Notes under the pieces: model-generated | The model's input: the letters and a program-made list of their open reading frames with translations, nothing else | Databases searched by the model: none | What the model was told of the DNA's origin: nothing | In this document: positions 32,477-59,800 of the stretch, piece after piece | Layout of the letters: each line of letters opens with the position of its first letter | Numbering within the stretch: position 1 is the first letter of the stretch | Source: Eledone cirrhosa | Lineage: Eukaryota | Reading direction: 5' to 3' | NCBI GenBank assembly: GCA_964016885.1 | Contig: OZ024750.1 | Coordinates: forward strand, 25,606,001 to 25,670,000 | DNA: 64,000 nt | Program-made: the position numbers and the translations under genes

Positions 32477-32538
<62 letters not shown>

Positions 32539-35500: not shown

Positions 35501-38500
35501 TCCACATCTGTTTTCTCTAATACTCTACTTCCATATCTGTTTTCTCTAATATTCTACTTCCATATCTGTTTTCTCTAATATTCTACTTCCATATCTGTTT
35601 TCTCTAATATTCTACTTCCAGATCTGTTTTCTCTAATATTCTACTCCCAGATCTGTTTTCTATGATATTCTACTTCCAGATCTGTTTTCTATAATATCCC
35701 ACTTCCAGATCTGTTTTCTCTAATATTCTACTCCCAGATCTGTTTTCTATAATATTCTACTTCCAGATCTGTTTTCTATAATATCCCACTTCCAGATCTG
35801 TTTTCCCTAATACTCTACTTCCATATCTGTTTTCTATAATATCCCACTTCCAATCTGTTTTCTATAATATTCTACTCCCAGATCTGTTTTCTATAATATT
35901 CTACTTCCAGATCTGTTTTCTATAATATTCTACTCCCAGATCTGTTTTCTATAATATTCTACTTCCAGATCTATACAATGCCTGAATACCTGAAATTACG
36001 TTTTGGTGGTCGTAGGATTCAACTGTGTATGGCCATTCTCTCTATTCTCGTCTACGTGTTTACAAAAATATCTGTAAGTATTTTATTTTCAATACCAAAT
36101 ATTTATTTTTGTATTTAATAATTTCCTAAAAAAAATAAGTTAAACTCTCATAGATTCTATAACTGAATTTTAAACAGAAAATATGCATATATATCATTTC
36201 ATCATCATCATTTCATTTTACGTCCACTTTTCCCTGCTTGCAAGGGTGGGACGGGAACTGATTCTGGCTTGAATTCTACAGCTGGATGCCCTTCCTAACA
36301 CCAACCTCATTTACAGTGAGTGCTGGGTGCTTTTTTACCATGGCGCCTACACGTCCACTTTGCAGTGGAATGATAGGGACCCCAGTCCCTATCATCTCAT
36401 TTCTACAGCTGAGTAAACTGGAGCAATGTGAAATAAAGTGTCTTGCTCAAGGAAACAACACATCACCCGGTCTGAGAATTGAACTCACAACCTTTCGATT
36501 GCAAGGCCAATGCTCTAACCACTAAGCCATGTGCCTCCATATATATATATATATAAAATTTAGAATAAGTTATTTTCAAATACAAAAACAGATAAAGATA
36601 GGTGAAGAAGTTATTGCAGCTTAGAATATGAGATTTATTACAGTAAACTACTCAGAAAGCTACATACAAGATTTACTTGTATGAACTCTATATATATATT
36701 TGCTTTTAAGAAGTTGCCACATATATTTTCTTGGATCCAGTGAAGATATCACTAGAAGTATGGAAAAATTGTCTTAAAGACTGTGGTAATATACTTGTTA
36801 CTAAAGTGGGATAGAACTGGGTTCTGAAGAAATATCTATTTATGTTGAAGAGGTTTATAGGAAATATCAATATTATTGGTTCATTATAATCAATTTCTAC
36901 AAAGAAATATATCAGATATCGAAGTTTGAAAGCCACAACAATGTGAAAGGGACGAATGAATAAATAAACAAGTTGGATGAAACAAGAAGTGTTTTTATCT
37001 TAATTTATTTATATGTCCTGATATTTCGAGATTAAAATCTCTTCTTCCAAGGAAAATAAACAGACTAATCTAGTGTCTGGCGCGGTGCGCTAATTAATTT
37101 GTCTGTTCCGGAGGCTCATGGCTTAGTGGTTAGAGCATTGGCCTTGCAATCGAAAGGTTGTGAGTTCAATTCTCAGACCGGGTGATGTGTTGTTTCCTTG
37201 AGCAAGACACTTTATTTCACATTGCTCCAGTTTACTCAGCTGTAGAAATGAGATGATAGGGACGGGGCTTCCTATCATTCCACTGCAAAGTGGTCGTGCA
37301 GGTGCCACAGCAAAAAAGCACCCAGCACTCACTGTAAATGAGGTTGGTGTTAGGAAGGGCATCCAGCTGTAGAAATCAAGCCAGAATCAGTTCCCGTCCC
37401 ACCCTTGCAAGCAGGGAAAAAGCGGACGTAAAATGAAATGAATGATGATAATGATGATGATGAATGTTCCGCATTGTCATAGCTTTCAAACTTCGAATTC
37501 TTTATACCATATACAATGCTTCAAGTAAACTACAAATTCCTATATCAGAAATGTTTATCTTAATTTAATGAAATAGAGGAGTTTATAAAAATTAAATATT
37601 TGAATATGATATGTTTGTTTTTTTGCCAAAATATATTTAAACGTATAAAATTAAATCAATGTTAATGTTTTTAATTGATGCCACTTATTCTGTTGCTGAG
37701 AATGTTGCCATTCATTTAAATGTATTTTTTTGCAGTAATTATTATTTTTTTTTTTTCATTCTGAAACTGAAATTAAATCTTAGGTTAATTTATGAAGCAT
37801 TGGAGAAGTTTGAAATTTGAGAAGTGATAGCCACAATTCAGACAACTATAAGTAATATTTAATAACTGCAAATACTATTTAAGTATGGTAAAATAACTCT
37901 GGAGATGTTTGTGGACACAGTTTCAAATTTCAAAATTTCTCAATGTTTTATACATTAACCTAATATTTATATTTCTAGCTTGATGCTTAAAACTTTGGTA
38001 CTTGGCAGTCAGATGTGTTTTAGGGAAATGGTTCAATGTGCTTGGCTGGTATATGAAAGATGCATGGTTCAATTCCTATAAGTGTCTCTGTCCACTTTTT
38101 TCCATCTCCAGGGATATTTTGCCTGACCTATTCAACTATTATTTATAGTTATCTGCATGGTGGCTGACATATTTCCAAATTTGAAATACAAATAGTTAAT
38201 GAAAACCTAATATACAGTGTAATTAATTAAGTAAAGAAAAATGTTAAGTATTTCAGTTTTCGATTTATGTTGGTGTCTCATATAATGATTTGTATAGATA
38301 GGCTTGGATATATTTATATATATAGGGGTTAATATATTTGTATAGATAGAGTGGTATATATTTATATAGAGTTGGGTATATATTTATATAGATAGAAGTT
38401 TATATATTTATATAGATAGAGTTGGGTATATTTGTATATAGATAGGGGTATATATATTTGTACAGATAGGGTTGTATATATTTGTATAGATAGGGGTGGT

Positions 38501-41500
38501 GTATATATATCTATATAGACAGGGATATATATAATTGTATAGATAGGGTTGTATATATTTGTATAGACAGGGTTGTATATAATCATATAGAGTTGCATAT
38601 ATTTGTATAGATAGAGGTGGTTTATATATTTTTATAGATAGAGGTGTATATATCTCTATAGATAAAGTTGGAGTTATTCACCTCATCTTGTACCACAACT
38701 GATTCTATAGAAATGGGAATAGAACTAAGAAAATAGCTGTAAATTATTTTCTTGGATTTTCAGTGTAACTAAGATCCTAATCATTGTATATAACACTATA
38801 ATGTATCTATCAATATTTTGTATTATGACAGAAAGGGTTTTAGTGTAATATTATGTTGAAAAGTATTGATATTTTCTGACATAGACATAAAACATGGAAG
38901 ATATAGGAGAGGAGAGGCTTTGGAAAGCTTTTTATGTTATAAAGTCTTTATAGACCATTAGTTATTTAACCCTTTAGCATTTAAACCGGCCGCATCCTGC
39001 CAGAATTCTCTCACCTTTTTTCTGTTCAAACTGATACTGATGTTAAGGTATTAATAATATCAAAATTAATAATATCAAAATTCCATAGACTTGATATTAT
39101 GTGAGATAATTATGTGAGGTAAAGCTTTTACCACAAAAATACAATAGTAAATATAGAGTAATGTAAATGCTAAAGGGTTAAGTAATATGAAACAGTTCTA
39201 AGTAAGAATGAAAATCAGGTTTTGAATTCAGTTTGCCAGGAACTTACAGCAGTGTCCATCACCAAAAAAAAAAAAAAAATTTTTTTGTGGGTTTTTCGGT
39301 CTTAACTTTTTGAACCCTGACCATTATTATATAAAAGCATAGGGCAGTAGAGCATCAGACACCATGCTTTGCAGCATAGAGTTATGGCCCTTTATGTTCA
39401 AATCCCACTGAGGTTAGCTTTGCCTTTCGTCCTTACGGAGTCGATAAAATAAATCACCAGTAATGCATTTAATTGACTTTCCTCTCTCCCCAAATTACTA
39501 GCCTTGTGCCTATAGTAGAAATCATTATTGAAGGGTTCAAATTCTTTGAAAATTGGGGATATTGAAGAAAATTATCACAGTAATAGAAGTGTCGCTAGCC
39601 AGCTGGTCATTTCTCTGTCTTGTAGCCACAGGTGAGGGAAGTGGGGTGGAGTGGAACGCTAGCTAGCTGGTTATTTTTCTGTCTTGTAGCCACAGGTGAG
39701 GGAAGTGGGGTGGAGTGGAACGCTAGCTAGCTGGTTATTTCTCTGTCTTGTAGCCACAGGTGAGGGAAGTGGAGTGGAACGCTAGCTAGCTGGTTATTTC
39801 TCTGTCTTGTAGCCACAGGTGAGGGAAGTGGGGTGGAGTGGAATCAACATTGAAAGAGTTGCTATGAGGATTATAAATAAACTTGTTGTTACTTCTCGGT
39901 TTATTTTTCACTATCAAAAAGTTTCTGATCACTTGAGTCTGCTTTGCTTCCATAATCAGCTTAACATCACTGACTTTCAACATCTTCTTCAGACTTTCAA
40001 ATCTCCTTGATCCAATAGGTTCAGCACTTTCTCTACTCTGGATTTTCTGGTCAGGATTTTGGCAAAAATTCACAGAAAAAAACCCAACAAAACAAAACCT
40101 CAAATGCGAAACTTTTCAATCACATGGCTTCCGGCTATCGTCTGCCTTCACATTATGAAAGAACTAATCTGATTGGCTGTCTGGTTGCTTGGAAATAAAT
40201 GTTTGTTTGTAAACAAATCTGTATGAAATATGAAATCCTGGCTCATCTGTGTCAATGATGATGAGCTCAGTTCAAATTGAAACACTGTCACATTGGGTTC
40301 AAAGGGCTAATAATGTCTTATTCATATTTAAACTATTAAGATATTTTCTTATAACAATACTACTGGGTATAAAACCTGAACTTATTCTTCTCTGGTCTAT
40401 ATAATATAATAATTGTTTCTACTTTTGGCACATGGCCATCAATTACCCGTACATTACTGGTACTTTATTTTATCAACCCCGTAAGGATGAAAGGCAAAGT
40501 TAAATAATAATAATATTGCAAATGTCTTTAGAACTCTGTGTACAAATTTGAAGCTTAAAGTATTTTATTTACTTAATTATTTACTTATTTACCTTTTTAT
40601 TTTATTATATTTTATATTTCTAACTTGTTGCCTACAAGAGAGTGAGTAAATCAGTTAAATTCTGTGAGGCCTTTTTTTAAAAATCTTCTTCAGAGTGTTT
40701 TTATATCAAAATTTAAAAAGGTATGCCACCAAATTGTTCTCCTATTCCAGTTAGTCCTTCTTCTTGACAGGTGTCGATAGGAATTGATCAAACCACATCT
40801 AATTAAGTGATTAAAAGTCCAATTACTTTTAACTGTAATATTAGATAAGATTTTTCAATCAGTCTCTCTCTCTTCACATGCTAATAAAGATGTTCAAGAT
40901 TTAAAATCTAAGCAGTTTATCAATTTTGGTATATGTTTCTGTAAGGTAGATCTTTAACTCTTTAGTTACCAATCCGGCCAAAACCAGCTCTAGTTCTATG
41001 AAATAACGTCACCTATTTTAAAGGTCCCCAATTGAAATTAAAATCTATAAGAACCTTACATTAAGTTACTATCTTAGTTATGAAATAATTAATAATTTTT
41101 TTATAAATTCCTCAAAATTCTTCATTAATTAAGTAAAATAGAATGTATTTCGTTAGAAATGCAGTCCTGAAAGAGTTAAATTACTGTCTTAGTTATGAAA
41201 TAATTGATAATTTTAGTAAATTCCTCATAATTCTTCATTAATTAATTCTATTTTAATTAATTCTTCATTAATTAATTAAAATAGAATGTATTTCGTCAGA
41301 AGGGTTAAAGTGTTGAACAAGAGGTGACTTAAGTAGAGTTCATGACATTTGACCTCCATTATCAGTTAGAAATGATCAAAGAGTAACAATTCTTATCACA
41401 GTGTTAACAATCCATAATAAAGTGCTCTTATTTCTTAAAGTTAGAATTATTACATTATTTTTTTTTATTCCTTGACTTCAAACTGTTGTTCCCCAATAAA

Positions 41501-44500
41501 TGTATAACCTCTCTACACCATGTATTGAGTACTCTTTGTTTAAGTACAAGATACAATTTCACTGACAATTTCTTTAAATTGGTTGTTTCCTTCACTTTTA
41601 TTTTTGAGGATGAAATATTTTAACTTTCTCTAATATCTTTATTTGTTCATTGTTTTACTCCATTAAAACCTTTCTAATTATCAATAGAAATGTGTATTAT
41701 CAATAGAAATCACAGTAACGATATAGATGTTATTGATATCAATAGATATAGTAATGATAGAGTTGTTATTGATAGTAATAACCATAGTAATGACAGTTGC
41801 TATTGATATCATTAGAGATCATAGTAATGATATAGTTGATATTGATAGTAATGACCATAGTAATGATATAGTTGTTATTGATAGTAATGACCATAGTAAT
41901 GATATAGTTGTTATTGATAGTAATGACCATAGTAATGATATAGTTGTTATTGATAGTAATGACCATAGTAATGATATAGTTGATATTGATAGTAATGACC
42001 ATAGTAATGATATAGTTGATATTGATAGTAATGACCATAGTAATGATATAGTTGTTATTGATAGTAATGACCATAGTAATGATATAGTTGATATTGATAG
42101 TAATGACCATAGTAATGATATAGTTGTTATTGATAGTAATGACCATAGTAATGATATAGTTGTTATTGATAGTAATGACCATAGTAATGATATAGTTGTT
42201 ATTGATAGTAATGACCATAGTAATGATATAGTTGTTATTGATAGTAATGACCATAGTAATGATATAGTTGTTATTGATAGTAATGACCATAGTAATGATA
42301 TAGTTGATATTGATAGTAATGACCATAGTAATGATATAGTTGTTATTGATAGTAATGACCATAGTAATGATATAGTTGTTATTGATAGTAATGACCATAG
42401 TAATGATATAGTTGTTATTTATAGTAATGACCATAGTAATGATATAGTTGTTATTTATAGTAATAATCAAGACAAAAGGTTAAAGTAGCATGGAGAGAAA
42501 CTAGGTGTAAGCTTCACATGACATATAGAGAAGCTAGATATCAGTTTCACATAGCATGGAGAGAAGCTAGATATCAACTTTACATAGCATGGAGAGAAGC
42601 TAGATATCAGCTTCACATAACATCAAGAGAAGCTAGATATCAGCTTCACATAACTTGGGGAGAAGCTAGATATCATATACACATAACATAGAGAGAAGCT
42701 AGATATCAGCTTCACATAACTTGGGGAGAAGCTAGATATCAGCTTCACATAACATGGGAAGAAGCTATTTATCAGCTTCACATAACATAGAGAGAAGCTA
42801 GATATCAGCTTCATATAACATGGGAAGAAGCTATATATATCAGCTTCACATAACATCGAGAGAAACTATATATCAGCTTCACATAACATGGAGAGAAGTT
42901 AGATATCATATACACATGACATAGAGAGAAGCTATATATCAACTTCACATAACATGGAGAGAAGCTAGATATCAACTTCACATAACATAGAGAGAAGCTA
43001 TATATCAACTTCACATAACATAGAGAGAAGCTTGATATCAGCTTCACATAACATGGGAAGAAGCTATATATCAGCTTCACATAACATAAAGAGAAGTTAG
43101 ATATCATATGACATAGAGAGAAGCTATATATCAACTTCACATAACATCAAGAGAAGCTATGTATCAACTTCACATAACATCAAAAGAAGCTAGATATCAA
43201 CTTCACATAACATAGAGAGAAGCTATATAGCAACTTCACATAACATAGAGAGAAGCTATATAGCAACTTCACATAACATAGAGAGAAGCTATATATCAAC
43301 TTCACATAACATAGAGAGAAGCTGAAAGCAAGAGTTGTATGAATATTTTGTGACAAGAGACTGAGACGCATGAGGCGTTCCAGATTGCAAAGTAGTGCAC
43401 CTTGGGTGGGATGACAAAGGTGCATTTAGAATCACTGATGTTGAGATGAAAGAAGCTTGAAAATGTTAATACAAGTGTTTGCGGAATGTAGACATTGCAA
43501 AGGGACCCTTCCAACAGATTCTACAAAGTGACCCCTTCCAGTAGACTCTACATAGAGACCACTTCCAGCAGACTCTACAGAGAGACTGCCTCTAGTAGAC
43601 ATTAGAATGACCCCTTCCAGTAGACCCTACATAGGGACTGCCTCTAGTAGACCCTACAAAGGGATCCCTTCCAGTAGACCCTACAGAGGGACCACTTCTA
43701 GCAGACTCTACAGAGGGACCACTTCCAGCAGACTCTTCATAGGGACTTCCTCTAATAAACCAAACAAAGGGACCAGCTATTGAAGTTGACTGTTATATTG
43801 TTGAGACCATTAAAGGATATATAGGCAGGGAAAAGCTAATATAGCATCAGGGATAGTTGCTGAAATGCTTAAAATATTTGGCAAAGCAGGACTCAAGCTA
43901 ACAAAGTGAGACTCAAGCCAACAAAATGAGACTCAAGCTAACAAAGTTAGACTCAAATTAGTTTCTCATATAGTTAACTAGTTAAGTACCAGGAGGTATC
44001 ATATTCAATGACTGGCATAGCATTATCGCCATAAACTATTGCAAGATCAAAGGAGATACTCTGGAAAGAAGTAACAGGTTTCAAATTGCTGTAGTGGGTA
44101 GAAATTCCATCTGATGTACCTAGTGTAAACTGTGGGTGTAGTGGGATTCCATCTAATGTACAACAAGTGTAGTGGGATTCTATTCCTTCTGATATACAAC
44201 AAGTGTAGTGGGATTTCATCTGATGTACAACAAGTGTAGTGGGATTTTATCTGATATACAAATGTAGTGGACTTCTATCTGATGTATAACAAGTGTAGTG
44301 GGATTTCATCTGATGTACACCAAGTGTAGTGGGATCACAAAATAAGTTTGTATGTGGCAGATTCACCGGGCTAATTAGTAATAAGAGAACCAGTGAAATA
44401 AACCTTTTCCAATTTAAGGAAGGTTCCATAGAAGTAGTTGATAGTTCCTGCTACCTAGGTGACCTAGTTAGTTGGGGCAGAGGGTGCTCTGAAAGCATAG

Positions 44501-45099
44501 TAACTAGAATAAGAACAAAGAGGTAAAAGTTCAGGGAACTACTACCACTAATCATAATAATATGATTCTTTCTTTAAACAAAAGGTAGATTGTATGATGC
44601 TTGTTTATGAAATACAATATTGCATTGAAGTATGACATGATTGTTATATATATATACACACGTGTTCTTTGAAGGCTGGAATGAAATGAAGCAAGCATGC
44701 TCCATTTGGATGTGTAATATTAGTGTGTATGAACAGCAAGGCACAGTTGAGTTAAGAGAAGAAAGAAAACTGTGTATAAGAGGAATAGAAAAATCTGATG
44801 TGGTGTGCAAGAAAGAAGAATGCTCTGGTATGGACATGTAATGCATATGGCTGAAGACAGGTAATGAAGTACAGGGAGCTCCAAGTGGAAGGAAAGAGAA
44901 GAAAAGGAAGACCAAGGAAGATATGGATAGAAATGGTGAAAGCTGATCTGAGGAATACAAGATGTGAAGAGATGTTGTGTTGAAGTGGAATCATTCAATC
45001 CGTGCAAACATGGAAGAAGATATAGAAAAAGGAGGATAATTTGTGGTTCAGTCAATAAAGTTCTTGGATACATTTAAAAAAAAGATTTTTAACATTGTT

Positions 45100-45157
<58 letters not shown>

Positions 45158-45185
45158 GCCACCACCACTACTACTACTACTGCTG

Positions 45186-45239
<54 letters not shown>

Positions 45240-47820
45240 GGAATGAACTTTTACTAAATATTGTAAACTTGGTAAATTCATGACTATTGTTGTAAATTCA
45301 TGACTATTTGTTGCAATCAACATTGTGGATTGGCAGTATCGGTAGAGGGTCGGACGCCATGCTTTCCAGCATAGTTACGGCCCTCTATGGTCTGAGTTCA
45401 AATCCCGCCGAGGTTAACTTTGCCTTTCATCCTTACGGGGTCGATGAAATAAAGTACCAGTAATACACTGTGATAATTGCTGGCCTTGTGCCAAAAGTAG
45501 AAACAATTATTATAAGAAAGTTAGTTAACCTAAATAATTACTGGTTGTAAGCAATGGTAATATAATACTGTTAGTTAACCCAAATAATTACTGGTTGTAA
45601 GCAATAATACTGTTAGTAATTATTGGTTGTTAAGCGGTAGTAATATAAAATAATAAGAGTAATATAATGTTAGTTAAACCAAGTAATTACTAGTGGTTAA
45701 GAGATAGTAATATATAATAATAATAGTTAACCTAAATAATTACTGGTTGTAAGCAATGGTAATATAATACTGTTAGTTAACCCAAGTAATTACTGGTGGT
45801 GAAGAGGTAGTAATATATAATACTGTTAGTTAACCCAAGTAATTACTGGTTGTAAGCAATGGTAATATAATACTGTTAGTAATTATTGGTTATTAAGAGA
45901 TAGTAATATAAAATAATAATAGTAATATAATGTTGTTAGTTAACCCAAGTAATTACTAGTGGTTAAGAGGTAGTAGTATATAATACTGTTAGTTAACCAA
46001 GTAATTACTGGTTAAGAGGTAGTAATATTAATACTGTTAGTTAACCCAAGTAATTACTGGTTGTTAAGAGGTAGTAATATTAATACTGTTAGTTAACCCA
46101 AGTAATTACTAGTTGTTAAGAAGTAGTAATATATAATACTGTTAGTTAACCCAAGTAATTACTAGTTGTTAAGAGATAATAATATAATAAAGTTAGTTAC
46201 TGGTTGTAAAGAGGTCTTCAGACACAGGTCAGACATCATTAAGTAGAACTATGACCAAAGATAGTGTTGTTGGTCTTCAGACACAGGTCAGCCATCATTA
46301 AGAAGAACTATGACTGCATCCCTAGGGAAAGATGCTTGTGAAGTGTTCTTTTTAGATTACTTTATTTAGATTTACCCCTCAGTGATTTTATATAAGAGGT
46401 TCTATATATATATATATATATATATCATCATCATCGTTTAACGTCCATCTTCCACGCTTGCATGGGTTTGGACGGGAGTTTTCCCACTTGAGGCAAGAGT
46501 GGTTGTCTTGCTCGCATAGGACTGTCTGGCGGGTTTTCTACAGCTGGATGCCCTTCCTAACAGCAACCACGTTTACAGTGTGGACTGGGAGGTTTTTACC
46601 GTGTTACCTACATGGCCACATTACAGCGTGGACTGTGTTTTTTTTTTGTCATGACACCTACACGACCTCATTTGTTTCGGACTGGATGTTGTGGTACCAA
46701 CATAACTTTACATTGAAAGGGATGGTGTGGATGGGGTGGGGGTAGTGGGACGGGGGTGTATTTTTGTTAGAGGTGCCTACTGACTGTAGTAGGTTTCACT
46801 TTGTACTTAGGCAAGGCGGGTCTTCTGTATTACTGTGTAGCGCCGAAGATCTCGGTCCAGTGACATTGTCTTGGAGAGGTGTAAGTGTGTGAGGTCGGAA
46901 TTTATCAGGTCGTCCCAGGTTTTTCTGGGTCTGCCTACTCCGTGGCTACCATCTATTTTTATTGCCCTGCACTTTTTTATACAGCTGTCGTCTTTCATGC
47001 GCATCACGTGACCGTACCAATGTAGTCTTCTCTAGAGTAAACAACATCTGATCCCTCTTATTTTTAATTTTTCCCTTAGTTCGTTTATGCTTTGCTGTTC
47101 ATGTATATTACTATTACACATCCAGCGTAGCATGCAAGCCTCGTTCCTCTCCAGTCTGCGTATATCCTCTGCACACAATGCGCAGGTCTCACTGCCATGT
47201 AACATTTCTGTTCGTATGCAGGCATCATACAGCCTGCCTTTCATTTTTAGAGAGAATCCTTTAGCGGCTAATAGTGGTATAAGCTCTCGGAACTTTTTCC
47301 ATCCAGTTCTGACTCTAGGTACTGTACTTTCAGAGCACCCTCCACCACTGCTGATTTTGTCACCCAAGTAACGGAAGGTGTCCACTATTTCTATAGAACC
47401 ATCTGTGCAATGGAATGAGCTAGTATTCAGTGGGCACTTGCTGCTACTTATTGCACCAGAGCACCGGCCACATATAAAATCTATATTCTTAGTTAGCTTA
47501 CCTGTGATCCCACTTCATCTTTTATGCACCCATAGTTTGCATTTGGGACATAAAATGGAGTTTCTGCCTACTCCTTTCCTACACGCTGAGCATGGCCATT
47601 TCCCGGATGGGACCGGTACCCTATTTTCCTTCCTACAAACTAGAACTTTAGTCTTAGACAGGTTAATTTTAAGGCCTTTTGATTCTAGGCCATGCTTCCA
47701 TGTTTGGAATTTATTCTCTAGTTCAGTCATTGATTCAGCTATGAGCGTTAGATCATCTGCGTATAGGAGTTCCCATGGGCAGCCGGTCTTGAACTCCTGT
47801 TATATATATATATCTATATA

Positions 47821-47877
<57 letters not shown>

Positions 47878-50800
47878 CTTTGCTTCTCTGGATGAGGTTT
47901 TTTTAGTGATCTGTTTTCATTGAGATGTTATGTTTATTGGTGGCTGAGTGGTTAGAGAATTGGATTCGCAATCATGAGGTTGTGAGTTCAATTCCCGGAC
48001 CGGATGATGCGTTATGTCATTGAGCAGACACTTTATTTCACGTTGCTCCTTCTACCTGGAGTTGCGACCAATATTAGCAATTGGAAAGACCAATGGAAAC
48101 ATTGTTTCCTTAGTCCGATTTGATGAAAGTCGATCGACTGTCTATATATATATATAGACACTTTATTTCACATTGCTCCAGTTTACTTAGCTGTAGAAAT
48201 GAGATGATAGGGACTGGGGTCCATATCATTCCACTGCAAAGTGGTCGTGGAGGTGCCACTGCAAAAAAGCACCCACCACTCACTGCAAATGAGGTTGGTG
48301 TTAGGAAGGGCATCCAGCTGTAGAAATCAAGTTCCCTTGCAAGCAGGGAAAAAGCGGACATAAAATGATGATGATATATATTAATATATATATATATATA
48401 TATATTAATATATATATATATATATTAATATATATATATATCATCATTTTATGTCTGCTTTTTCCCTGCTTGCAAGGGAACTTGATTTCTACAGCTGGAT
48501 GCCCTTCCTAACACCAACCTCATTTACAGTGAGTGCTGGGTGCTTTTTTGCAGTGGCACCTCCACGACCACTTTGCAGTGGAATGATATGGACCCCAGTC
48601 CCTATCATCTCATTTCTACAGCTAAGTAAACTGGAGCAATGTGAAATAAAGTGTCTTGCTCAAGGAAACAACACATCATCACCCAGTCTGAGAATTGAAC
48701 TCACAACCTTTCGATTGCAAGGCCAATGCTCTAACCACTAATCCATGTGACTCGATATATATATATATCAGATAACTTTAAAAATAAAAATCAAGTTACA
48801 TTTCCTTATGAAAATTTATATTTTCCAAATTGAAAAGGAAATACAATATAGGAGTTTATTTTTATCTTTCAAAATTTCTTTTATTGTTGGACATTTTAGA
48901 GTTTTTCAGATATAGTAGTAAAACCATAGATTTGGTTAGGAACTACAGAAATATTAAGAAAATAATATATTTCTTGACTTACTTTACCTGAATAAGGTGA
49001 AAATAAAATTGTATAAATTCTATAATTTATTTTACAAACATTTTTTTTTTTTTTTTTTAACTGAAAAATAAATTAAGAATTTCTGTCTTTTGCTAATAAT
49101 TTAATTTCTCCCCTAAAATACTTCAATACAAGGTAGGATGGTTTTGACTAACATGCCTTGTAACATTCCAGATTTTGGTATTTCAACTTTGGATGGGTCA
49201 ACCAACGGAGGATGTTGAAATAACAAGACAGCAACAAGAAAAAAATATATCTTCTTCAATGCTGTCTTCTTATACAGCTTGATATCTGAGATGGGTGAAT
49301 GTTTTGTCTACTTTTACTTCAAGTGTTTCATTATATCAATAGATTTGTCGATTTTTTGTTAAAAGCAGTTGAAGCAGCCATGTAAAACATTTTTATTTAA
49401 GAAGTGAAACACTGAAAGCAGAAACTGCTTATACAGGAGTCATTGTGGTAGAAACTGTTTGTGCATAAGAGTCATTGTGGTAGAAACTATTTGTGTATAA
49501 GAGTAATTGTGGTAATAGACCAATATGTTTGTGTCTTTGTTTGTGTATATGTATATGTGTGTATGTATATATAATATATATATATATAATAAGAGGTAGA
49601 CCCCCCACCATAACCTCAATGGCAAAAAAGACTCCCATGGGAAGGTGGATTGGATTGACCAAAGCTATACGGACCCCCCAAAACACTGATCAGGTAAGAA
49701 AAATGGTTGCACATGCAATAGGGGCTAGTATCAAAACTACCCTAAAGGGCCACATATTTAAGTTCAATGAGAAAATCTACACCCAAAATGAGGGAGCAGC
49801 CATCGGCGTCAGCATAGCTGGTGATGTTGCCAACCTTTTCATGGTATGGTGGGAAAGGAGACTTAAAGATCTCCTTAATGAAAGCTCCATAGACCTCATC
49901 ATGTACTCTCGTTATGTAGACGATATCAATACAGTTATAAGAACACCCCCACTAGAGAGCACTAACAAGTTTGATTTAGAACGTAGCACGATGGAAAGCA
50001 TCCAGCAGATAGCTAATTCCATACACCAGAGTATAACTGTAACTATCGACTTCCCTTCCAAACACCCTAACAATAGACTACCTGTATTAGACACAGAACT
50101 CTGGATTAACACTATAGGCGAGAGAGCCCAAATTCTCCACTCACACTACGCTAAACCCATAGCCTCCAAATACCTGATACTCAAAAACTCAGCAATGTCC
50201 AGTAGTGCTAAGTTTAATATTCTGATCGCAGATTTGGTACGAGTGATGAAGAATGTGTCCCGCATGTGCGACCCAACAGAAATGGAAAGACACATCCAAC
50301 ACTTCATCAACCGCATGCAGTTCTCTGGCTACAACCAAAGAGACAGAGTCAGAGTATACGAAGGAGCCATGGAAAAGTATAAGACCCTCATAGAACTGGA
50401 CATGAAAGGAATTTGCCCATTATACAGGAGCAAATCATGGAATAGCTTAGATAGGGCTAGACATAAGATAGGGAAAGCCACCTCATGGTACGACAACCAG
50501 AGATACCAGAGTGTCATGTTTGTGGACGCCACCCCTGGAGGAAAATTAGCTAACCAGTGTAGAAAGGCCCTGAGAAAGACCCACTTAAAAATAAAGGTGG
50601 TAGAAAAGCCAAGAACCACCATAAAATCCCTAATCAGCAAAACCTACCCTTTTAAGAAAACCCACTGTACCAATAGGAAATGTATCATATGTAAGGTGAA
50701 CCCCCGGATAAACTGTAAAACTAGAAACGTAGTCTATAGCATAAGATGTACAGAGGGTACTTGCAGAAACATGACAACAACATACATAGGTGAGACAGCT

Positions 50801-53800
50801 CGTAGCATAGGTGAAAGGATAGACCAACACTGGGGGGAACTAAAAGGACGAAAAAACGGGTCAGTACTATACGAACATGCTAGACAACAACATGACGGTA
50901 ACATAGACAACATAGAAATTAGAATAATATCTATATATATAAATAAATGTAAAAGTTCTATTTAAATTGTTGGGATACAACAAGCAAATATTTTTATAAC
51001 TGATATAAAGCACTCAACAAATTATTGGAGTAAAAATACGATATATTAACAAATGGAAACTATATTTATAAAACCATATTTATTTCATTATACATATTTC
51101 AAGGACACCAAGTTAAATTATGGTGTACTTTCATCAGATAAAATATAATATAGATCAGTTTTATAAATAAATATTGACATACCCTATCCGGGAGCTTCCA
51201 ACAGAAATGGTCGCATTCTTTAAGGGTATGTCAATATTTATTTATAAAACTGATATATATATTAATATATATTTTTTTAAATTTCTATATAAATTTCTAT
51301 ATAAATATATATTTTTTTAAATTTCTATATAAATTTATATATAAATATATATTTTTTTAAATTTCTCTCTGTGAGACAGTGTTTCTCAGTTTTAAAGGCT
51401 ATCTCTCTCTCTCACTCATTTCTCCTCCTTTCTCACCCTTCCTTCTTATACTCCTCCCACGTCATCCTTTATTTTCTTTCTTCCTCTTCCTTACCCCCCC
51501 CCCCCTCCCGTCCTTTTTTTTCCCAATCTCATATATCCATCTTATTTTATTTTTCATATGTAGATTTAACACTTCACTGCTCACAAGTGTTTTTTAAGCT
51601 TCATATCATGTCTCCCTATTTTATCTGATGAGAACGCAAATATCATATCATCCCATGATGATATTTGTTTTTGAAATGCGCATAATAAAATACATGGAAC
51701 TCTTTTAACCATCTTTTGATCTTATATATAAATATATATATATAACACACACATGTATATATATATATTTATATATATATAACACACATATATCTATATA
51801 TATATATATATTCTCTCTTCTGATGAAAGATTAACATTCATTAACTCTTTTTATACTATATCAAGCATAACACTAATAATATATTTCTTCATTGTACTGT
51901 GACGTTTGCCTTTGGCATATATATATATATATATATATAACATACAAGCTGAAACCATTTGGCGCAGTGGTCAAAATTTTACATATCTCTCTCTGTTTCT
52001 GTGTATGTAAAGGCACATGGCTTAGTGGTTAGAGTGTTTGGCTTGCAATTGTGAGGTTGTGCATTGTATCCTTGAGCAAGGCACTTTATTTCATGTTGCT
52101 TCAGCTTATTCAGCTGTAGAAATAAGTTGCAGCCTCACTGGTACTGAGTTATATTGGTCATTGCTTTTCCCTTGGACAACATCGGTAGTATGGAGAGGGG
52201 TGACTGACATGTTTGGGCGACTGCTGTTTTTCCATAAACAACCTTGCCTAGACTTGTGCCTTGGAGGAGGAACTTTCTAGGCACAAATCCCATGGTCATT
52301 CATGATCGAAGGGGGTCTCTTTAGCCTTATATATATATATATAAACACACACGTATATATATATATATATTGCTCCAGTTTACTCAGCTGTAGAAATGAA
52401 ATGATAGGACTGGGGTCCCTATCATTCCACTGCAAAGTGGTCGTGGAGGTGCCACGGCAAAAAAGCACCCAGCCCACACTGTAAAGTGGACGTGTATGCA
52501 CCACGGAAAAAAAGCACCCAGCACTCACTGTAAATGAGGTTGGTGTTAGGAAGGACATCCAGCTGTAGAAATCAAGCCAGAATCAGTTCCCGTCCCACCC
52601 TTGCAAGCAGGGAAAAGCAGACATAAAATGATGATGATGATGATGATATATATAGTACACATACATCTATCTCTATATATGTTAGTATGGATTTCAGCTC
52701 AACTAAGATATTCATATTTCACTGTAATTTAGAGATCATTTGGAGTTAATATTTGTAAGTTAATTGTTAACAGTTCATAACCTCACTTCAAATGTTTAGC
52801 AAGGGCTGTGCCATACATGGGTAACAGGAAGTTTATCCCTTATTGTCTTCTGCAAAAGCTCATTCTGTATGCTGACTAAATATACATGACCTACTTTAAC
52901 TATAAACCAGTGTTGAACCTGAACATGATCTGATCACCATGGTGGGCTATAGAGACTAACCTATGAGATACCTTGAATTTCAACATCTGGAATCTTAATA
53001 ATAACCTTACTTTAAGATACCTGAATCTAACATAGCAGTTATGGCTCATCTTTTAAATGCTATTGTTACAACAATAATTGACACATTCCAGTAGTCACTC
53101 AATGATAACCTTACATTATATGACCTCATATTATGTAACCTAACATTATATGACCTACATTATGTGACCTACATTATATAAACTTAGTGGTAAAAATCTC
53201 TCAGGAGAGTTGGACAGCAGAAGGTCTTCAGAGAAGAAGCCCCTGTCTCAAGCAAGTGTTTTGGTCCTTAACTTCTGTGACCTTGATCCAATATCTCAGT
53301 TAGGACTCAGACATTTGTTTTTCAATTGATAATCAATTCAATATTAGTTTAAATTGAACTCATTATAAATACTAGCAGAAAAAGCAGCCTGATATAATGA
53401 TGCAAATATATGAATGTATATATAAGCTATATGATATAGCATCCATTATATCATAACTGGAAGTATTGACATTTGAAAATTTAAAAGAAGTGAATCTTAA
53501 AATAAGCAATCATTATATATAAGGATATAGTCCAACATAGTTACGTCCCTTTACAGTCTGAGTTCAAATCCCACCGAGGTTCACTTTGCCTTTCATCCTT
53601 ACGGGGGTCGATAAAATAAAGTACCAGTAATGTACCGGGTAATTGCTGACCTTGTGCCAAAAAAGTAGAAACAATTATCATCAACATCATCTTCGTTTAA
53701 CATCCATTTTCCACGCTAGCATGGGTTAGACGGGAGTTGTCCCACTTGAGGCAAGGCTGGTCGGGTGACCGTGTCTCGCTCATATAGTACTATCTGGCAG

Positions 53801-56800
53801 GTTTTCTACGGCTGCATGCCCTTCCTAACACCAACCACATTTACAGTGTGGAACTGGGAACTTTTTACTGTGTTACCTATACGGCCACATTACAGCGTGG
53901 ACTGTGTGTGTTTTTTGTCGTGACACCTACACGATCTCGATCTCATTTTCTCGTGCTGTTGGTGGGAGTGGGAGGATAGGGTAGGGGTAGTGGATTGGGG
54001 TGTATATTTGGTTAAGAGGTGCCTACTGACTGTAGGTTTCACTTTGTACATATTATATATAAGGATATTTATCAAGAGCTACGAAATTTAGTACATAAAT
54101 TACGTAATATTCATTCCTTATTTATTCAAAGTAATCTAACTTATTTTACTAACAGGATTAACAAATATACAACAGATGCTGTCCTGCACTCCTCCCTTTA
54201 TATCTAGGAATGAGCTTTTGCTGAAGACAATAAGGGATAACCTTCCTGTTACCCATGTATGGCACAACCGTTGCTAAACATCTGAAGTGAGATTATGAAC
54301 TGCTAACCATTAACTTACAATAGATTTATTGATTTATTGACATCTGTTGTTTTTTTTTTTTTATATTTATTTGGGTTATTTCATGTCTTTATATTTATTG
54401 TTTTTAGGTCATTCATAATTTTATGTTTAATAAATTTTCTATAAAAGAGTTGCATGCATGCACACATCAGCCCTCACCCTCTCGCCTCATAGCCATCCAC
54501 CACATGTGCTGGTACAGACATGTCCTCCGCCTCATGCCAGATCATCCTACCAGGGCCTAACTCTCATTTGACTCAGCGGCTACAGGCTGCAAGGGGCACC
54601 ATAGCAGGGCCCACACCAAATAGCTGGATGTGTGATTAAGGAAAATATCCAGAGGTTCGACATCACCTTGGAGTATGCAAAGGGGATGGCATGGGACCGC
54701 CAACGATGGAGGGCACTGGTGGACCTGGTCAGCTCTACACACAATGATGCCTCTGGGATCACTGACCTAGGATGGCCCCAGTCCCATTGAGCAAGAGCAA
54801 GAAGAAGAATTTTATAATCTTTATAATTTGTAGAATTTTGGTCTTTTAACTCCATCCCCCAAACCTTTGTTTCCATCATCGTTTAAGCATTTCCTTATTA
54901 CATACTACTCTATTACTCTATTACGTAATCCAGCTGACAGGCTGAGGCCATGCTGGGGCACCACCATTGTTTATTTTAATTTTACTTTTAATTATTTATC
55001 CAGGTCATAATGAGTTTAGTGTTGGATTTACTCCTAATAAGTACAACTCCCTTGATTAGTTATACTCATGAAAAGATAATCAGTGTATTATTTATTAATC
55101 AATATTAATAAATAAATGGGGTCGATTTAATTGACTTTCTCCGTGCCCCCAAATTGTTAGCCATGTGCATTATTATTGCACATGGCCATCAGAAACTATT
55201 ATTATTATTATTGTTACTGAGATTAGTAGTATTATTATTAACTTATCCTAACATTCTGCTCATGAATCCAATGGATATGTTATCTAATATGTTATCTAAT
55301 AGATGTGTTATCTAATAGATGTGTTATCTAATGGATGTGTTATCTAATAGATGTGTTTTCTAATGGATATGTTATCTAATAGATGTGTTATCTAATGGAT
55401 GTGTTATCTAATGGATATGTTATCTAATAGATGTGTTATCTAATGGATAGTTATCTAATAGATATATTAACTAATAGATATGTTATCTCATGAATGTGTT
55501 ATCTAATGGATATGTTATCTAATAGATAGTTATCTAATAGATATATTAACTAATAGATATGTTATCTCATGAATGTGTTATCTAATGGATATGTTATCTA
55601 ATAGATAGTTATCTAATAGATATATTAACTAATAGATATGTTATCTCATGAATGTGTTATGTAATAAAAAATATATATTTCTTTTCCTTTTATTTAATTT
55701 CTTCTCTTCACTTTCATAATTATACTCGTTAGGTGATAATTATTGTTTGTAATTTCACTAAATGATATTCATTCGCATTGCTGATTGAAAGTAATTGTTG
55801 TTTGAAATTCTTCCAATTTGAATACAAAGCCAATGTTTTGTGTTTCTTTTAATTTAATTAATTAATTGATTGATTAATTATTGGTAAATGAACCTAAAGT
55901 TTGATTATTTATTAATGTATATTTTGTACATTGGAGTAACATTACTCAATAAAGTGCGTAACTCGGAGATCAGAGAGTCTCTCCAGGTAGAACTGTTACT
56001 TTTCTGAATTGAGAGATCACAGCTCCGATACTATGGGCATGTGGTTAGAATGTCTCAGGAAAGAATTTCTGGACAGATTTTATGGGGAAAACTAACCGGC
56101 AAGAGATCCAAGCGTAGACCCTGAGCAAGATGGTTGGATAACATCCATGAGCTTGGCTCGTCACACATGTGGGGATCCAGCCGGATCAGTTGGAGACTGT
56201 TGCTTCTGAAAGGATCGACTTTCTCTTCCCAACAAAACCGTTGGCCTTGTGCCTAAATCAGAAACCAATATTATTTCAAATCCTACCAAGGTTAGCTTTG
56301 CCATTCATCCTTACGGGGGTCGATAAATTAAAGTATCAGTAATGCACTGGGGTTGATTTAATCGATTTTCCTCTCCCCACAAAACTGTTGGCCTAGTGCC
56401 TAAATCAGAAACCATTATTATTGTAATAGAGATGTGAGCAAAATGAAATGTTTGAATTCCTTAAATTTTTCTCATTACTAAAATTGTAGCTAACAGAGCT
56501 GTTATGTATTTAACCTCTTCAGTGCAGTAGATGAGATAACTCATCATAACATGTATGCATTCCAGTGCCATGGATGAGATAACTCGTTCTAACATGTATA
56601 ACAAGTTCATAACTTCAAAGTTATGAACTTGTTTCCAACAGTTCATAGCTTCAAAGTTATGAACTCGTGTCCAACAGTTCATAGCTTCAAAGTTATGAAC
56701 TTGTTTCCAACAGTTCACAGCTTCAAAGTTATGAATTCGTGTCCAACAGTTCATAACTTCAAAGCTAGATGAAGTTACTAGTTTATTGATGTGACGTTTG

Positions 56801-59800
56801 TCAATCATTCAGATATGTGTTGTTAATAAATGTTTGTTTACAAAAAATAGTCATTTTACTGAAAAAAACCCCAGCACAGGTAGCTGTGTAAAATATACAC
56901 GGCAGTCAACAGGTTAAAAAAATTCTTAACAGAGAACAAAAAATGTTTATTCCGTATTGTTTTCTCGTTATTTTATTATTAAACTTAATATGCATGAAAA
57001 ATTTGTCATTTTCTTGTGATATCTTCTGCCTATAACTATGCACTTGTTTCACGCCAAGACAATTCTAAAGTTCCTCCAAATTTCATATATTAAAAAGAAC
57101 TTATATTTTGTGTGTGCTAATTCTAAAATTTGTGCTATGCATTGCTTTTTTTAAAACAGTTTTGGAAGTCAGAATATAAATGTCTTTATATTTTATTTAC
57201 ACTGTGAATATTATGAGTAGAATAGCCAGAACTATAGGGAGTATTGAAAACCCCTACCTCTTCATTTTGGGGTTTATGAATTCATCATGCCCTTCTTTAT
57301 ATATTGCCTTTTTGTGTCCCAGAGCAAACTATTTAAAAACTCTACTTGTCTTAAGTTTCATGACTAACTGCCAAACAGTAATAATAATATCAATAATATT
57401 AATTATTGCTATTGTTGTTGTTGTTATTGTTGTTATTATTATCAGTAGCAACATATGACAGCAGTTGATTTAGATACTGTTTTAGTTAATAATCAATATC
57501 AATGAATGAAAGGTCAAATCATCTTTCTCTAATTAATGAAGCAAATATTGAACTCAGTGGAAAATATTTAGTTTAATTGAAATCTTGTTTAAATTAAGTA
57601 AACTTTTACAAAATATTTTTAGTTTGATTGAAATCTTGTTTAAATTAAGTAAACTTTTACAAAATACTCAACACTTTTTTTATTCTAACTGTTTTATATT
57701 TAAAAAAAATATATATATATTTGTAAAAAAAATAAGTGGATTAATTAAAATTTTTTTTTGTTTAAAAATTGCTATAAATGTTTTGAACTGCTAAGTTGAT
57801 TGTTATAGGCCGATCTTTATGCCGGAGCACTGTTTATTAAACAAGCTTTGAAATGGGACTTGTACCTGTCATTGCTTCTCATCTTGGCCATTGCATCAAT
57901 ATTTACCATCAGTGGTAAGTTAAATATCTACTTAGTCTTTCATTATCATCGTTGCCATTATCATTATCATTTCACTCAACATCAACACCACTGACGATAA
58001 CAATATTGTTGATTTTGTTGTTGTTGTTGTTGTTGTATAGCAGGTCACTCTTTATTGAGCAGATCTTTGATCATAAGGTATTTCAGCCATGACAATTCTG
58101 TCTTTTTGTAATATAAAGGACTACATTGTCCAATGTGTCCTCACAATTTTATACAAGACAGTAGTGTGTGATTGGAGGGAATTTGGCAACTATTTGTAGC
58201 CAGTTGATTGACTTCGTAGGAGCTGTCTTGTCAGCAGTGATATTATTGTTTAGTTCCAGGTCAGCTTTCATTGATCTGACCTCAGATTAAAGGCATTCTA
58301 GCTATGACTGGGGCTACATTGGGCTTTCTTATATAAAAGATTATAAGAGTTATTTGAGGGAGATATTGCTGCTATTTCTAGCTAGTTCCCTTGTCAACAG
58401 TGATATTGTTATAATCATTGTTATTACCAATAATATCATCATTGACATCATCATCATCATCATCATCACCATGAGAGATTTATTAGAAAGTCCAGCCAAG
58501 TCAAGTATATTGTCCTTTAGTCTAGTGCCTACACCTATACATCTTACTTCCTTCCACATTTTGTGTGGCATTTATTTTATAAAATGGAAATCTGGTAGAA
58601 CTACTCCTCTCCCCATAGACACAAGGATTGGTGTTTAATTCTGGACATTTTTTATGTATCCCTATTTTTAGACTAGGTTCACCGTAACCCTGTTTTCAGA
58701 ATAGGTACACTGTATCCGTTTTGACTAGGTACACTGTATCGCTGTTTTTAGACTATGTACACTATTTCTGTTTTTAGACTAGGTACACCATATCCCTGTT
58801 TTTAAACTAGGTACACTGTATTTCTGTTTTTAGACTAAGTACACCATATCCCTGTTTTTAGACTAGGTACACTGTATTTCTGTTTTTAGACTAGGTACAC
58901 CATATCCCTGTTTTTAGACTAGGTACACTGTATTTCTGTTTTTAGACTAGGTACACCATATCCCTGTTTTTAGACTAGGGTCCCTGTATCCCAGTTTTTA
59001 GAATAGGTACACTGTATCCCTGTTTTTAGACTAGGTACACTGTATCCCTGTTTTTAGAATAGGTACACTGTATCTCTTCACTGTATCCCAGTTTTTAGAA
59101 TAGGTACACTGTATCCCTGTTTTTAGACTAGGTACACTGTATCCCTGTTTTTAGACTAGGTACACTGTATCCTTGTTTTGTGAGAGGAATCTGGAAGGGA
59201 CTTAAAATATTGCCTAAAATTTTGACCAACCCATGCTAACATGAAAAAGTGGATGTAAAAATGTTGATGATAATGATGATGATATCTTAAAATATCTGAA
59301 CCAGCCTTCTCCTGTACCAATATAAAAAAATATTTGTTTCTATATTTCCTTAAGGTGGACTAACTGCTGTAATATGGACAGACTTTATGCAGTGTTTCAT
59401 AATGCTGGGTGGTGCTATAGCCCTTATGATTCTCAGTAAGTATTACCTTATATATATATATCATCATCATCGTTTAACATCTATCTTCCATGCTAGCATA
59501 TATATATATATATATATAGCTTGTACTACCAACTTATAGTATGTACAACCAATATATATATATATATAGCTTATACTACCAATATACATATAGTATGTAC
59601 TACCACTATATAGTATATGCTATCACTCTATATAGTATATACTTCCACTATATATAGTATGTACTATCACTATATAGTATATACTATCACTATATAGTAT
59701 ATACTATCACTATATAGTATATACTATCACTATATAGTATATACTATCACTATATAGTATATACTATCACTATATAGTATGTACTACCTATATATATTAT

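What the first reader, a model, noticed from the sequence alone, without database searches (positions are those of the whole stretch)
51081..51692. Pair of oppositely oriented hammerhead ribozymes just downstream of an open Penelope ORF
Seen: two complete CUGAUGA...GAAA...UH cores at 51081-51145 (-) and 51617-51692 (+), about 150 and 700 bp after the Penelope fragment. Both have stem I UAUUUUAU/AURAAAUA, an AUA cleavage triplet and a very short, self-complementary stem III (AUAUGUAU, AUGCGCAU). Established: Penelope-like elements and non-LTR retrozymes carry minimal type I hammerheads whose palindromic stem III lets them cleave as dimers. Inference: these belong to an AT-rich PLE-associated or retrozyme-like family with unusually long stem II (10 bp or more) and AUA rather than GUC. 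The plus copy lies in the sense strand of SLC5A intron 5, so cleavage could cut the nascent pre-mRNA. Proximity to the ORF may simply reflect shared (TA)n targeting.
Basis: partly seen in the sequence, partly recalled or inferred. Interest (0 to 1): 0.75.

Follow-up and report, generated by a model that had tools for sequence, protein, structure and literature searches.

The report
Hydra-clade Penelope hammerhead ends
The two self-cutting-RNA motifs are real, but they are the tail ends of two separate families of a known kind of jumping gene (Hydra-clade Penelope-like elements) that left about 80,000 such motifs in this genome; they are unrelated to the neighbouring gene fragment and predicted not to cut the host transcript, although their ends point to twin RNA hairpins that likely tell the element's enzyme where to start copying.

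Summary
Both hammerheads are as described, and a third lies at 32676-32742 (-). They are not a functional pair and do not belong to the adjacent ORF: its 24 other copies continue into a different 3' UTR, 23 with their own minimal hammerhead. Each motif sits in the pseudo-LTR of a different Hydra-clade Penelope-like family, sense to the ORF and 1.0-1.8 kb after it; a sister subfamily of HHR2 has intact 800-aa ORFs in 3.9-kb tandems. One tight pattern matches 80,184 times genome-wide (control 1). Stem II covaries across families while flanks diverge to chance level. The fold needs a dimer; in the SLC5 intron the sense copy has no partner and is predicted to be masked by antisense HHR1. Copies end at two fixed sites about 90 nt apart, each a few bases before a bulged hairpin; 31 of 32 classifiable mirror pairs have one end of each kind. 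I did not find this in the papers read, but earlier notes of this scan report it on other DNA. Cleavage and expression are untested.

The parts
51081..51145 (-). HHR1: type I hammerhead of Hydra-clade family A; predicted cut after 51089
50945..51185 (-). Family A arm: 5'-truncated pseudo-LTR end with the long (about 90 nt) tail; outer end blurred by (TA)n
   Evidence: 95-97% to natural copies L157 and L231; ends
51009..51031 (-). Hairpin H1 (ACUC-C...G-UU-GAGU-GCU) at the start of the tail
51186..51260 (+). Family A opposite arm, broken off just before its hammerhead; forms the inverted repeat 51148-51258
51352..51727 (+). Family B 3' end: 5'-truncated pseudo-LTR fragment stopping at the short end, followed by (TA)n
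   Evidence: 86-90% over about 380 nt to L183, L185, L188
51617..51692 (+). HHR2: type I hammerhead of family B with a private 5-nt duplication in stem/loop II; predicted cut after 51684
32676..32742 (-). HHR3: same design, third Hydra-clade family (C), long-tailed arm
49589..50935 (+). Unrelated Penelope-like fragment (RT, CX4CxxC linker, GIY-YIG), truncated at both ends; Nematis-like linker spacing
36074..57808 (+). Host intron of an SSF/SLC5-type gene that holds HHR1, HHR2 and the ORF fragment

Best explanation
The two motifs are the pseudo-LTR hammerheads of two different Hydra-clade Penelope-like retrotransposon families, left in an intron as short 5'-truncated 3' ends beside (TA)n, where they are likely inert. 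Shown: parent layout (hammerhead, about 190-210 nt, ORF, 1.0-1.8 kb UTR, hammerhead), two fixed 3' ends about 90 nt apart, one of each in mirror pairs, and a bulged hairpin 4-9 nt beyond each end. Inferred: in a tandem transcript two copies would pair their palindromic stem III and cut slowly after AUA, perhaps with help from the element's protein. The RT-endonuclease dimer would bind the two hairpins, cut both strands of (TA)n and prime one cDNA at each hairpin. That would give one tailed and one untailed arm, each carrying an uncut hammerhead because it lies only 45-145 nt from the start points.
For: Same-strand hammerhead downstream of a Hydra-type ORF in 11 of 17 extended family A loci and 14 of 20 family B loci; 7 more have only an upstream or inverted copy, 5 none. 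Intact 800-aa ORFs flanked by hammerheads at 3.9-kb period; about 35 of 150 scored matches have an 821-codon open frame (my count). Hydra motifs in families A, B and C (definitions); P0022 resembles Hydra-1_Obim by eye. Covariation on 14 hand-picked variants: 98.8% of cells paired against 93.4+/-0.9 shuffled, 26 double changes against 9.6+/-3.5, 0 of 500 shuffles each. Between families the core and stem I are 75-100% identical, the upstream 150 nt 41-45%, equal to shuffles. Ends: 31 long+short, 1 short+short, 0 long+long among 32 classifiable of 39 distinct pairs. Hairpin motif in 2 of 2900 shuffled tails. Dimer fold -34.9 against -24.6 kcal/mol for two HHR2 monomers; active monomer 4.5-5 kcal/mol above the MFE. 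PMC11167929 shows internal initiation at two sites, extension of both strands, uncut RNA as template and protein-assisted cleavage for another clade.
Against: No cleavage or expression was measured. No tree with published Hydra proteins could be built; membership rests on motifs and comparison by eye. The unit (3.9 kb) exceeds the '<3 kb' described for Hydra. H2 has only 1-2 bp above the bulge, and strict motif matches were 8 and 9 of 12 (family A, H1 and H2) and 9 and 7 of 10 (family B) read-through copies. The pair sample is small, drawn from loci picked by similarity, and family C loci were picked with a tailed query. Related sequences can beat the covariation shuffle; stem I shows no double-sided change and pairs with double changes were reached by 18 of 500 shuffles. 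The HHR1 dimer gains only 2.6 kcal/mol. AUA is described as a slow triplet (PMC3138052). Why the family A plus arm lacks its hammerhead is not explained.
Confidence: 0.85

Rival explanations
1. The motifs belong to a non-coding retrozyme-like or SINE-like family copied from small (circular) RNAs.
For: Most copies are tiny: 24 of 30 family A loci extend under 100 nt upstream of the core, many 62-97 nt. Retrozymes are proposed to derive from pseudo-LTRs (preprint 10.64898/2026.07.22.740005, abstract and part 1).
Against: 5' ends vary from 23 to over 360 nt and run on into the 3' UTR and ORF of coding parents. No 150-450-bp head-to-tail unit at these loci, the defining layout in PMC7229834.
Confidence: 0.06
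2. The hammerheads are the pseudo-LTR ribozymes of the adjacent Penelope ORF.
For: Distance of only 150-700 bp; HHR2 is on the ORF's strand.
Against: 24 of 24 other copies of this ORF continue past 50931 into another 3' UTR; 23 carry their own minimal hammerhead and 0 carry this type within 900 nt. The ORF aligns with the real parent protein over only 46 aa at 26%.
Confidence: 0.01
3. HHR2 cuts the nascent SLC5 pre-mRNA and affects host expression or splicing.
For: Intact core, sense to the gene; its 8-bp perfect palindrome makes a strong dimer in the model; transcripts of other copies could supply a partner in trans.
Against: It is the only sense hammerhead found in the window. In 51040-51760 (+) stem I has pairing probability 0.0 because both conserved arms pair with the antisense copy of HHR1 (about 1.0); without that context stem I is 0.4 and stem III 0.0. 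It is one of about 80,000 copies, with no sign of special conservation.
Confidence: 0.04
4. Same elements, other mechanism: one cDNA folds back on itself and the endonuclease trims one arm, so the hairpins are endonuclease or packaging signals, not RT start signals.
For: PMC8557442 attributes the tail to endonuclease resolution; the short end is TA-rich; arms often meet at near-palindromic joints.
Against: In several pairs each arm holds sequence the other lacks (kilobases of ORF on one, the tail on the other; L102, L161, L166, L169, L170), so neither is a copy of the other. Both ends keep the same short distance to a hairpin in three families.
Confidence: 0.15

Closest known systems
Hydra clade of C-terminal EN+ Penelope-like elements, incl. 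Hydra-1_Obim (Craig et al. 2021, PMC8557442; section 11, passages, supplement parts 2, 3, 53 of 59 read)
   Same: RW(K/R/T), DKT, CxCX5C linker, CxxC-E and N-CxH motifs, sense-strand hammerhead near the 3' end, palindromic stem III, (TA)n targets, inverted 5'-truncated copies.
   Different: All 24 Hydra families in File S2 have C15.2-G16.2 (GUH triplets); here U15.2-A16.2 (AUA). Longer stem II with a fixed pyrimidine mismatch at pair 4; 8-bp stem I; 3.9-kb unit; about 90-nt tail against 30-40 bp in the text; hammerhead unlike that of Hydra-1_Obim.
PAc (Poseidon of Anolis; Frangieh et al. 2024, PMC11167929; parts 1-2 of 4 read)
   Same: Two reverse-transcription start sites delimiting the tail, AT-rich targets, uncut hammerhead in the template.
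   Different: Other clade; starts lie inside the ORF in one AC-rich stem-loop, 30-40 nt apart; here they lie in the 5' UTR, about 90 nt apart, each before its own hairpin.
Metazoan PLE minimal hammerheads (Cervera and de la Pena 2014, PMC4209133; parts 1-2 of 4 read)
   Same: Dispersed solo motifs from truncated elements, opposite-strand pairs 100-700 bp apart, long stem II, dimer-type stem III.
   Different: No extra base after position 9 and no conserved G10.1-C11.1 pair (A-U, G-U); stem I 8 bp, not 4-5.
Metazoan non-LTR retrozymes (PMC7229834; passages and section 13 read)
   Same: Type I hammerhead, AT-rich, very high number (126,247 motifs in axolotl).
   Different: No short tandem unit; parents are coding; circular RNA not shown.

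Membership tests
Type I hammerhead ribozyme | CUGANGA / GAAA / UH core with three helices, open at stem I | tested here: met
Type I hammerhead ribozyme | Stem covariation across relatives | tested here: met
   5 of 6 proximal stem II pairs change on both sides; stem I one-sided only
Type I hammerhead ribozyme | Match to an Rfam hammerhead model | tested here: not met
   no hammerhead family among 13 matches at E<=1
Type I hammerhead ribozyme | Self-cleavage at the predicted site | not testable with these tools
   no assay possible
Hydra-clade PLE | Single ORF, RT then C-terminal GIY-YIG endonuclease | tested here: met
   800-aa ORF P0022
Hydra-clade PLE | RWK motif and DKT in place of DKG | tested here: met
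   RLRWT (B), RIRWR (A), RLRWR (C): RW kept, K replaced; SDKT in all three
Hydra-clade PLE | CxCX5C linker; CxxC before E and CxH after N; no CCHH | tested here: met
   families A and B; family C endonuclease seen only as tblastn hits
Hydra-clade PLE | Sense hammerhead in the pseudo-LTR and insertion into (TA)n | tested here: met
Hydra-clade PLE | Generally shorter than 3 kb | tested here: not met
   tandem period 3.9 kb because of a 1.2-kb 3' UTR; a stated tendency, not a diagnostic motif
Hydra-clade PLE | Groups with Hydra in an RT tree | not testable with these tools
   reference proteins could only be read, cut, in the supplement
Non-LTR retrozyme | 150-450-bp tandem units each with a hammerhead | tested here: not met
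Non-LTR retrozyme | Non-coding unit | tested here: not met
   copies run on into coding parents
Non-LTR retrozyme | Monomer or circular RNA in cells | not testable with these tools
   no RNA run was available
Nematis/Neptune PLE (adjacent ORF only) | CX2-5CxxC linker before a C-terminal GIY-YIG with CCHH | tested here: met
   CTNRKCIIC with short spacing as in the Nematis rows of Fig. S2; clade not settled by a tree

The most novel reading that the evidence does not exclude
Hydra-clade Penelope elements place their two reverse-transcription starts with twin bulged hairpins (RCUC-C..G-UN-GAGY-GCU) in the 5' UTR, one per protein subunit and target strand, which fixes a 90-nt tail and the one-long, one-short rule; the motif is shared from octopus-type genomes to coral and sea cucumber, and an active family with an AUA-cutting, dimer-only hammerhead gives a ready in vitro system.
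Probability: 0.55. Interest if true: 0.65.

Novelty: new member of a known kind. Interest (0 to 1): 0.4.

Why it matters
As a locus it is ordinary: debris of abundant retrotransposons. Its value lies in the families. How Penelope-like elements, the closest retroelement relatives of telomerase, choose their start sites and build 'inverted copy plus tail' insertions is open (PMC8557442, PMC11167929). The twin hairpins give a concrete, mutable RNA signal, and identical intact ORFs give a protein to test. About one motif per 37 kb also makes a strand-bias test of ribozyme activity in introns possible.

Tried and rejected
Rfam: no hammerhead hit. Pfam: no family for the adjacent ORF. One search was aimed at a (CA)n stretch by mistake and is not used. 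Sequencing runs: no RNA holder listed. Contigs of 4 coded runs laid on 50700-51270 show the family and its variants but no piece spanning the locus, so insertion polymorphism stays open. Homologue search gave 21 unnamed proteins at 28-38% identity, of no help for naming. A protein alignment failed on a wrong frame and was not repeated. One search counted overlapping loci twice; one search replaces it. Its 'A' group includes related subfamilies with the same ends; 7 of 39 pairs had an off-mode or read-through arm and were left out of the 31 of 32. Exon 4 of the host gene was not found. A single hybrid insertion from A and B RNAs (long A end, short B end) was considered; the intervening A plus arm and AT-rich filler fit separate events as well; unresolved. 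Literature searches for an AUA triplet in PLE hammerheads, octopus hammerheads, tail or hairpin signals and twin priming; only Hydra-1_Obim, with another hammerhead, turned up.

Full report
Observation. The two hammerheads are present at the stated places with the stated stems, and a third of the same design lies at 32676-32742 (-). A single 76-nt fold is not remarkable (z -0.9 to -2.0) and Rfam does not detect them. The genome settles chance: a pattern covering stem I, core, stem III and triplet matches 40,238 + 39,946 times in 3.0 Gb against 1 for the reversed control, about one per 37 kb.

Not the neighbour's ribozymes. The ORF at 49589-50935 is an RT plus GIY-YIG fragment with a CX4CxxC linker of Nematis-like spacing. 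All 24 other copies examined run on past 50931, finish the endonuclease and have another 3' UTR; 23 hold a different minimal hammerhead and none holds the type seen here within 900 nt. The window copy is cut off at a TA run where the HHR1 element begins.

The real parents. HHR1 is identical over 75 nt at 32 of 40 scored places, the window included; HHR2 relatives are 90-96% alike. Walking upstream reached GIY-YIG ORF ends for both. Extended loci show ORF, 1.0-1.8 kb of UTR and then the hammerhead on the same strand (11 of 17 for family A, 14 of 20 for family B). A sister subfamily of HHR2 has identical intact 800-aa ORFs in 3.9-kb tandems with a hammerhead 212 nt before the ATG. The proteins carry the Hydra-clade marks of PMC8557442 and resemble Hydra-1_Obim by eye. 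HHR3 reads through into a third Hydra ORF, 54% identical. The parent protein and the adjacent ORF share only a 46-aa GIY-YIG patch.

Selection on the fold. Across 14 hand-picked variants 98.8% of cells pair, and 5 of 6 proximal stem II pairs change on both sides. Core and stem I stay 75-100% identical between families whose upstream flanks are at shuffle level. Stem III stays self-complementary in 205 of 215 redundant hits. Differences from published Hydra hammerheads: U-A instead of C-G at 15.2-16.2, hence AUA, and a longer stem II with a fixed mismatch.

How it likely works. The active monomer fold lies 4.5-5 kcal/mol above the MFE, while the double-hammerhead is favoured over two monomers by 10 (HHR2), 2.6 (HHR1) and 1.4 (HHR3) kcal/mol. 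This fits slow, dimer- or protein-assisted cleavage of tandem transcripts, as reported for other PLE hammerheads; it is inferred, not shown. Inserted copies keep whole hammerheads, so uncut RNA is the usual template, as in PAc. In the SLC5 intron HHR2 is the only sense motif found, and its conserved arms are predicted to pair with the antisense copy of HHR1 480 nt upstream, which abolishes stem I in the model. Host regulation is therefore unlikely.

Locus history. From left to right: truncated Nematis-like fragment; family A minus arm with long tail (50945-51185); family A plus arm broken before its hammerhead (51186-51260); AT-rich filler; family B end (51352-51727) stopping at the short end. 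The opposite orientation of HHR1 and HHR2 thus joins two families and is not the usual mirror pair of one insertion.

The ends. Copies stop at two sites after the cut position: about +51/+144 (A), +46/+135 (B), +56/+150-160 (C), a tail of about 90 nt. Of 39 distinct mirror pairs, 32 could be classed and 31 are one long plus one short. 28,163 places have the hammerhead 3' half followed by the tail's first hairpin bases, against 5 controls. A bulged hairpin begins 4-9 nt beyond the short end and a second copy just beyond the long end in read-through copies of all three families. By eye the motif is in published Hydra-2_Amil, Hydra-2_Ajap and twice in Hydra-1_Ajap, in variant form in Hydra-1_Crog, and not evident in the part of Hydra-1_Obim seen. 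Published consensus ends also split: 10 of 24 lie 26-43 nt and 11 lie 81-149 nt after stem I. An earlier scan note led me to the first hairpin; I found the second and the pairing rule before seeing notes that report the same. I did not see this in the papers read (searches). I did not see the supplements of PMC11167929 or the older Penelope papers, which may bear on it.

Verdict. New Hydra-clade families with a distinct AUA hammerhead; the locus is ordinary; the twin-hairpin start model is the testable part. Interest 0.4.

Noticed in passing
window 32676-32742 (-), arm about 32535-32790: Third hammerhead, family C, long-tailed arm in an earlier intron of the same gene, antisense to it; its H1 hairpin is degenerate in this copy.
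   Followed up: yes
L222:5091, L230:1369 and 6667: The adjacent ORF's own family has a minimal hammerhead-like motif with a 5-bp stem II and only about 2 bp of stem I; L230 holds a 932-codon open frame.
   Followed up: partly
L013, L027, L160, L161, L164: Another abundant hammerhead family (stem I UUUCAUU, stem III ACCACUGGU, GUA triplet), also in mirror pairs; parent not traced.
   Followed up: no
L168:5101, L189:5299: A compact hammerhead family with palindromic ACUAGU stem III and GUA triplet.
   Followed up: no
G000:C2:47113702-47122987 (L112, L113, L120, L124, L125, L129): Six tandem partial copies of the family B RT region at about 1.7-kb period.
   Followed up: no
window 48312-48500: Near-perfect inverted repeat of a SINE-like end around a (TA)n core; gives spurious miRNA matches in Rfam.
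   Followed up: no
window 47032-47799 (-): Broken non-LTR (RTE-like, from recall) reverse transcriptase fragment in the same intron.
   Followed up: no
window 51127: The window's HHR1 has U at the stem II mismatch, while nearly all laid contig depth has C; it belongs to a minor subfamily.
   Followed up: partly
family A loci L001-L030: 5' truncation points cluster 62-97 nt upstream of the core, which suggests a strong RT pause or joining site.
   Followed up: partly
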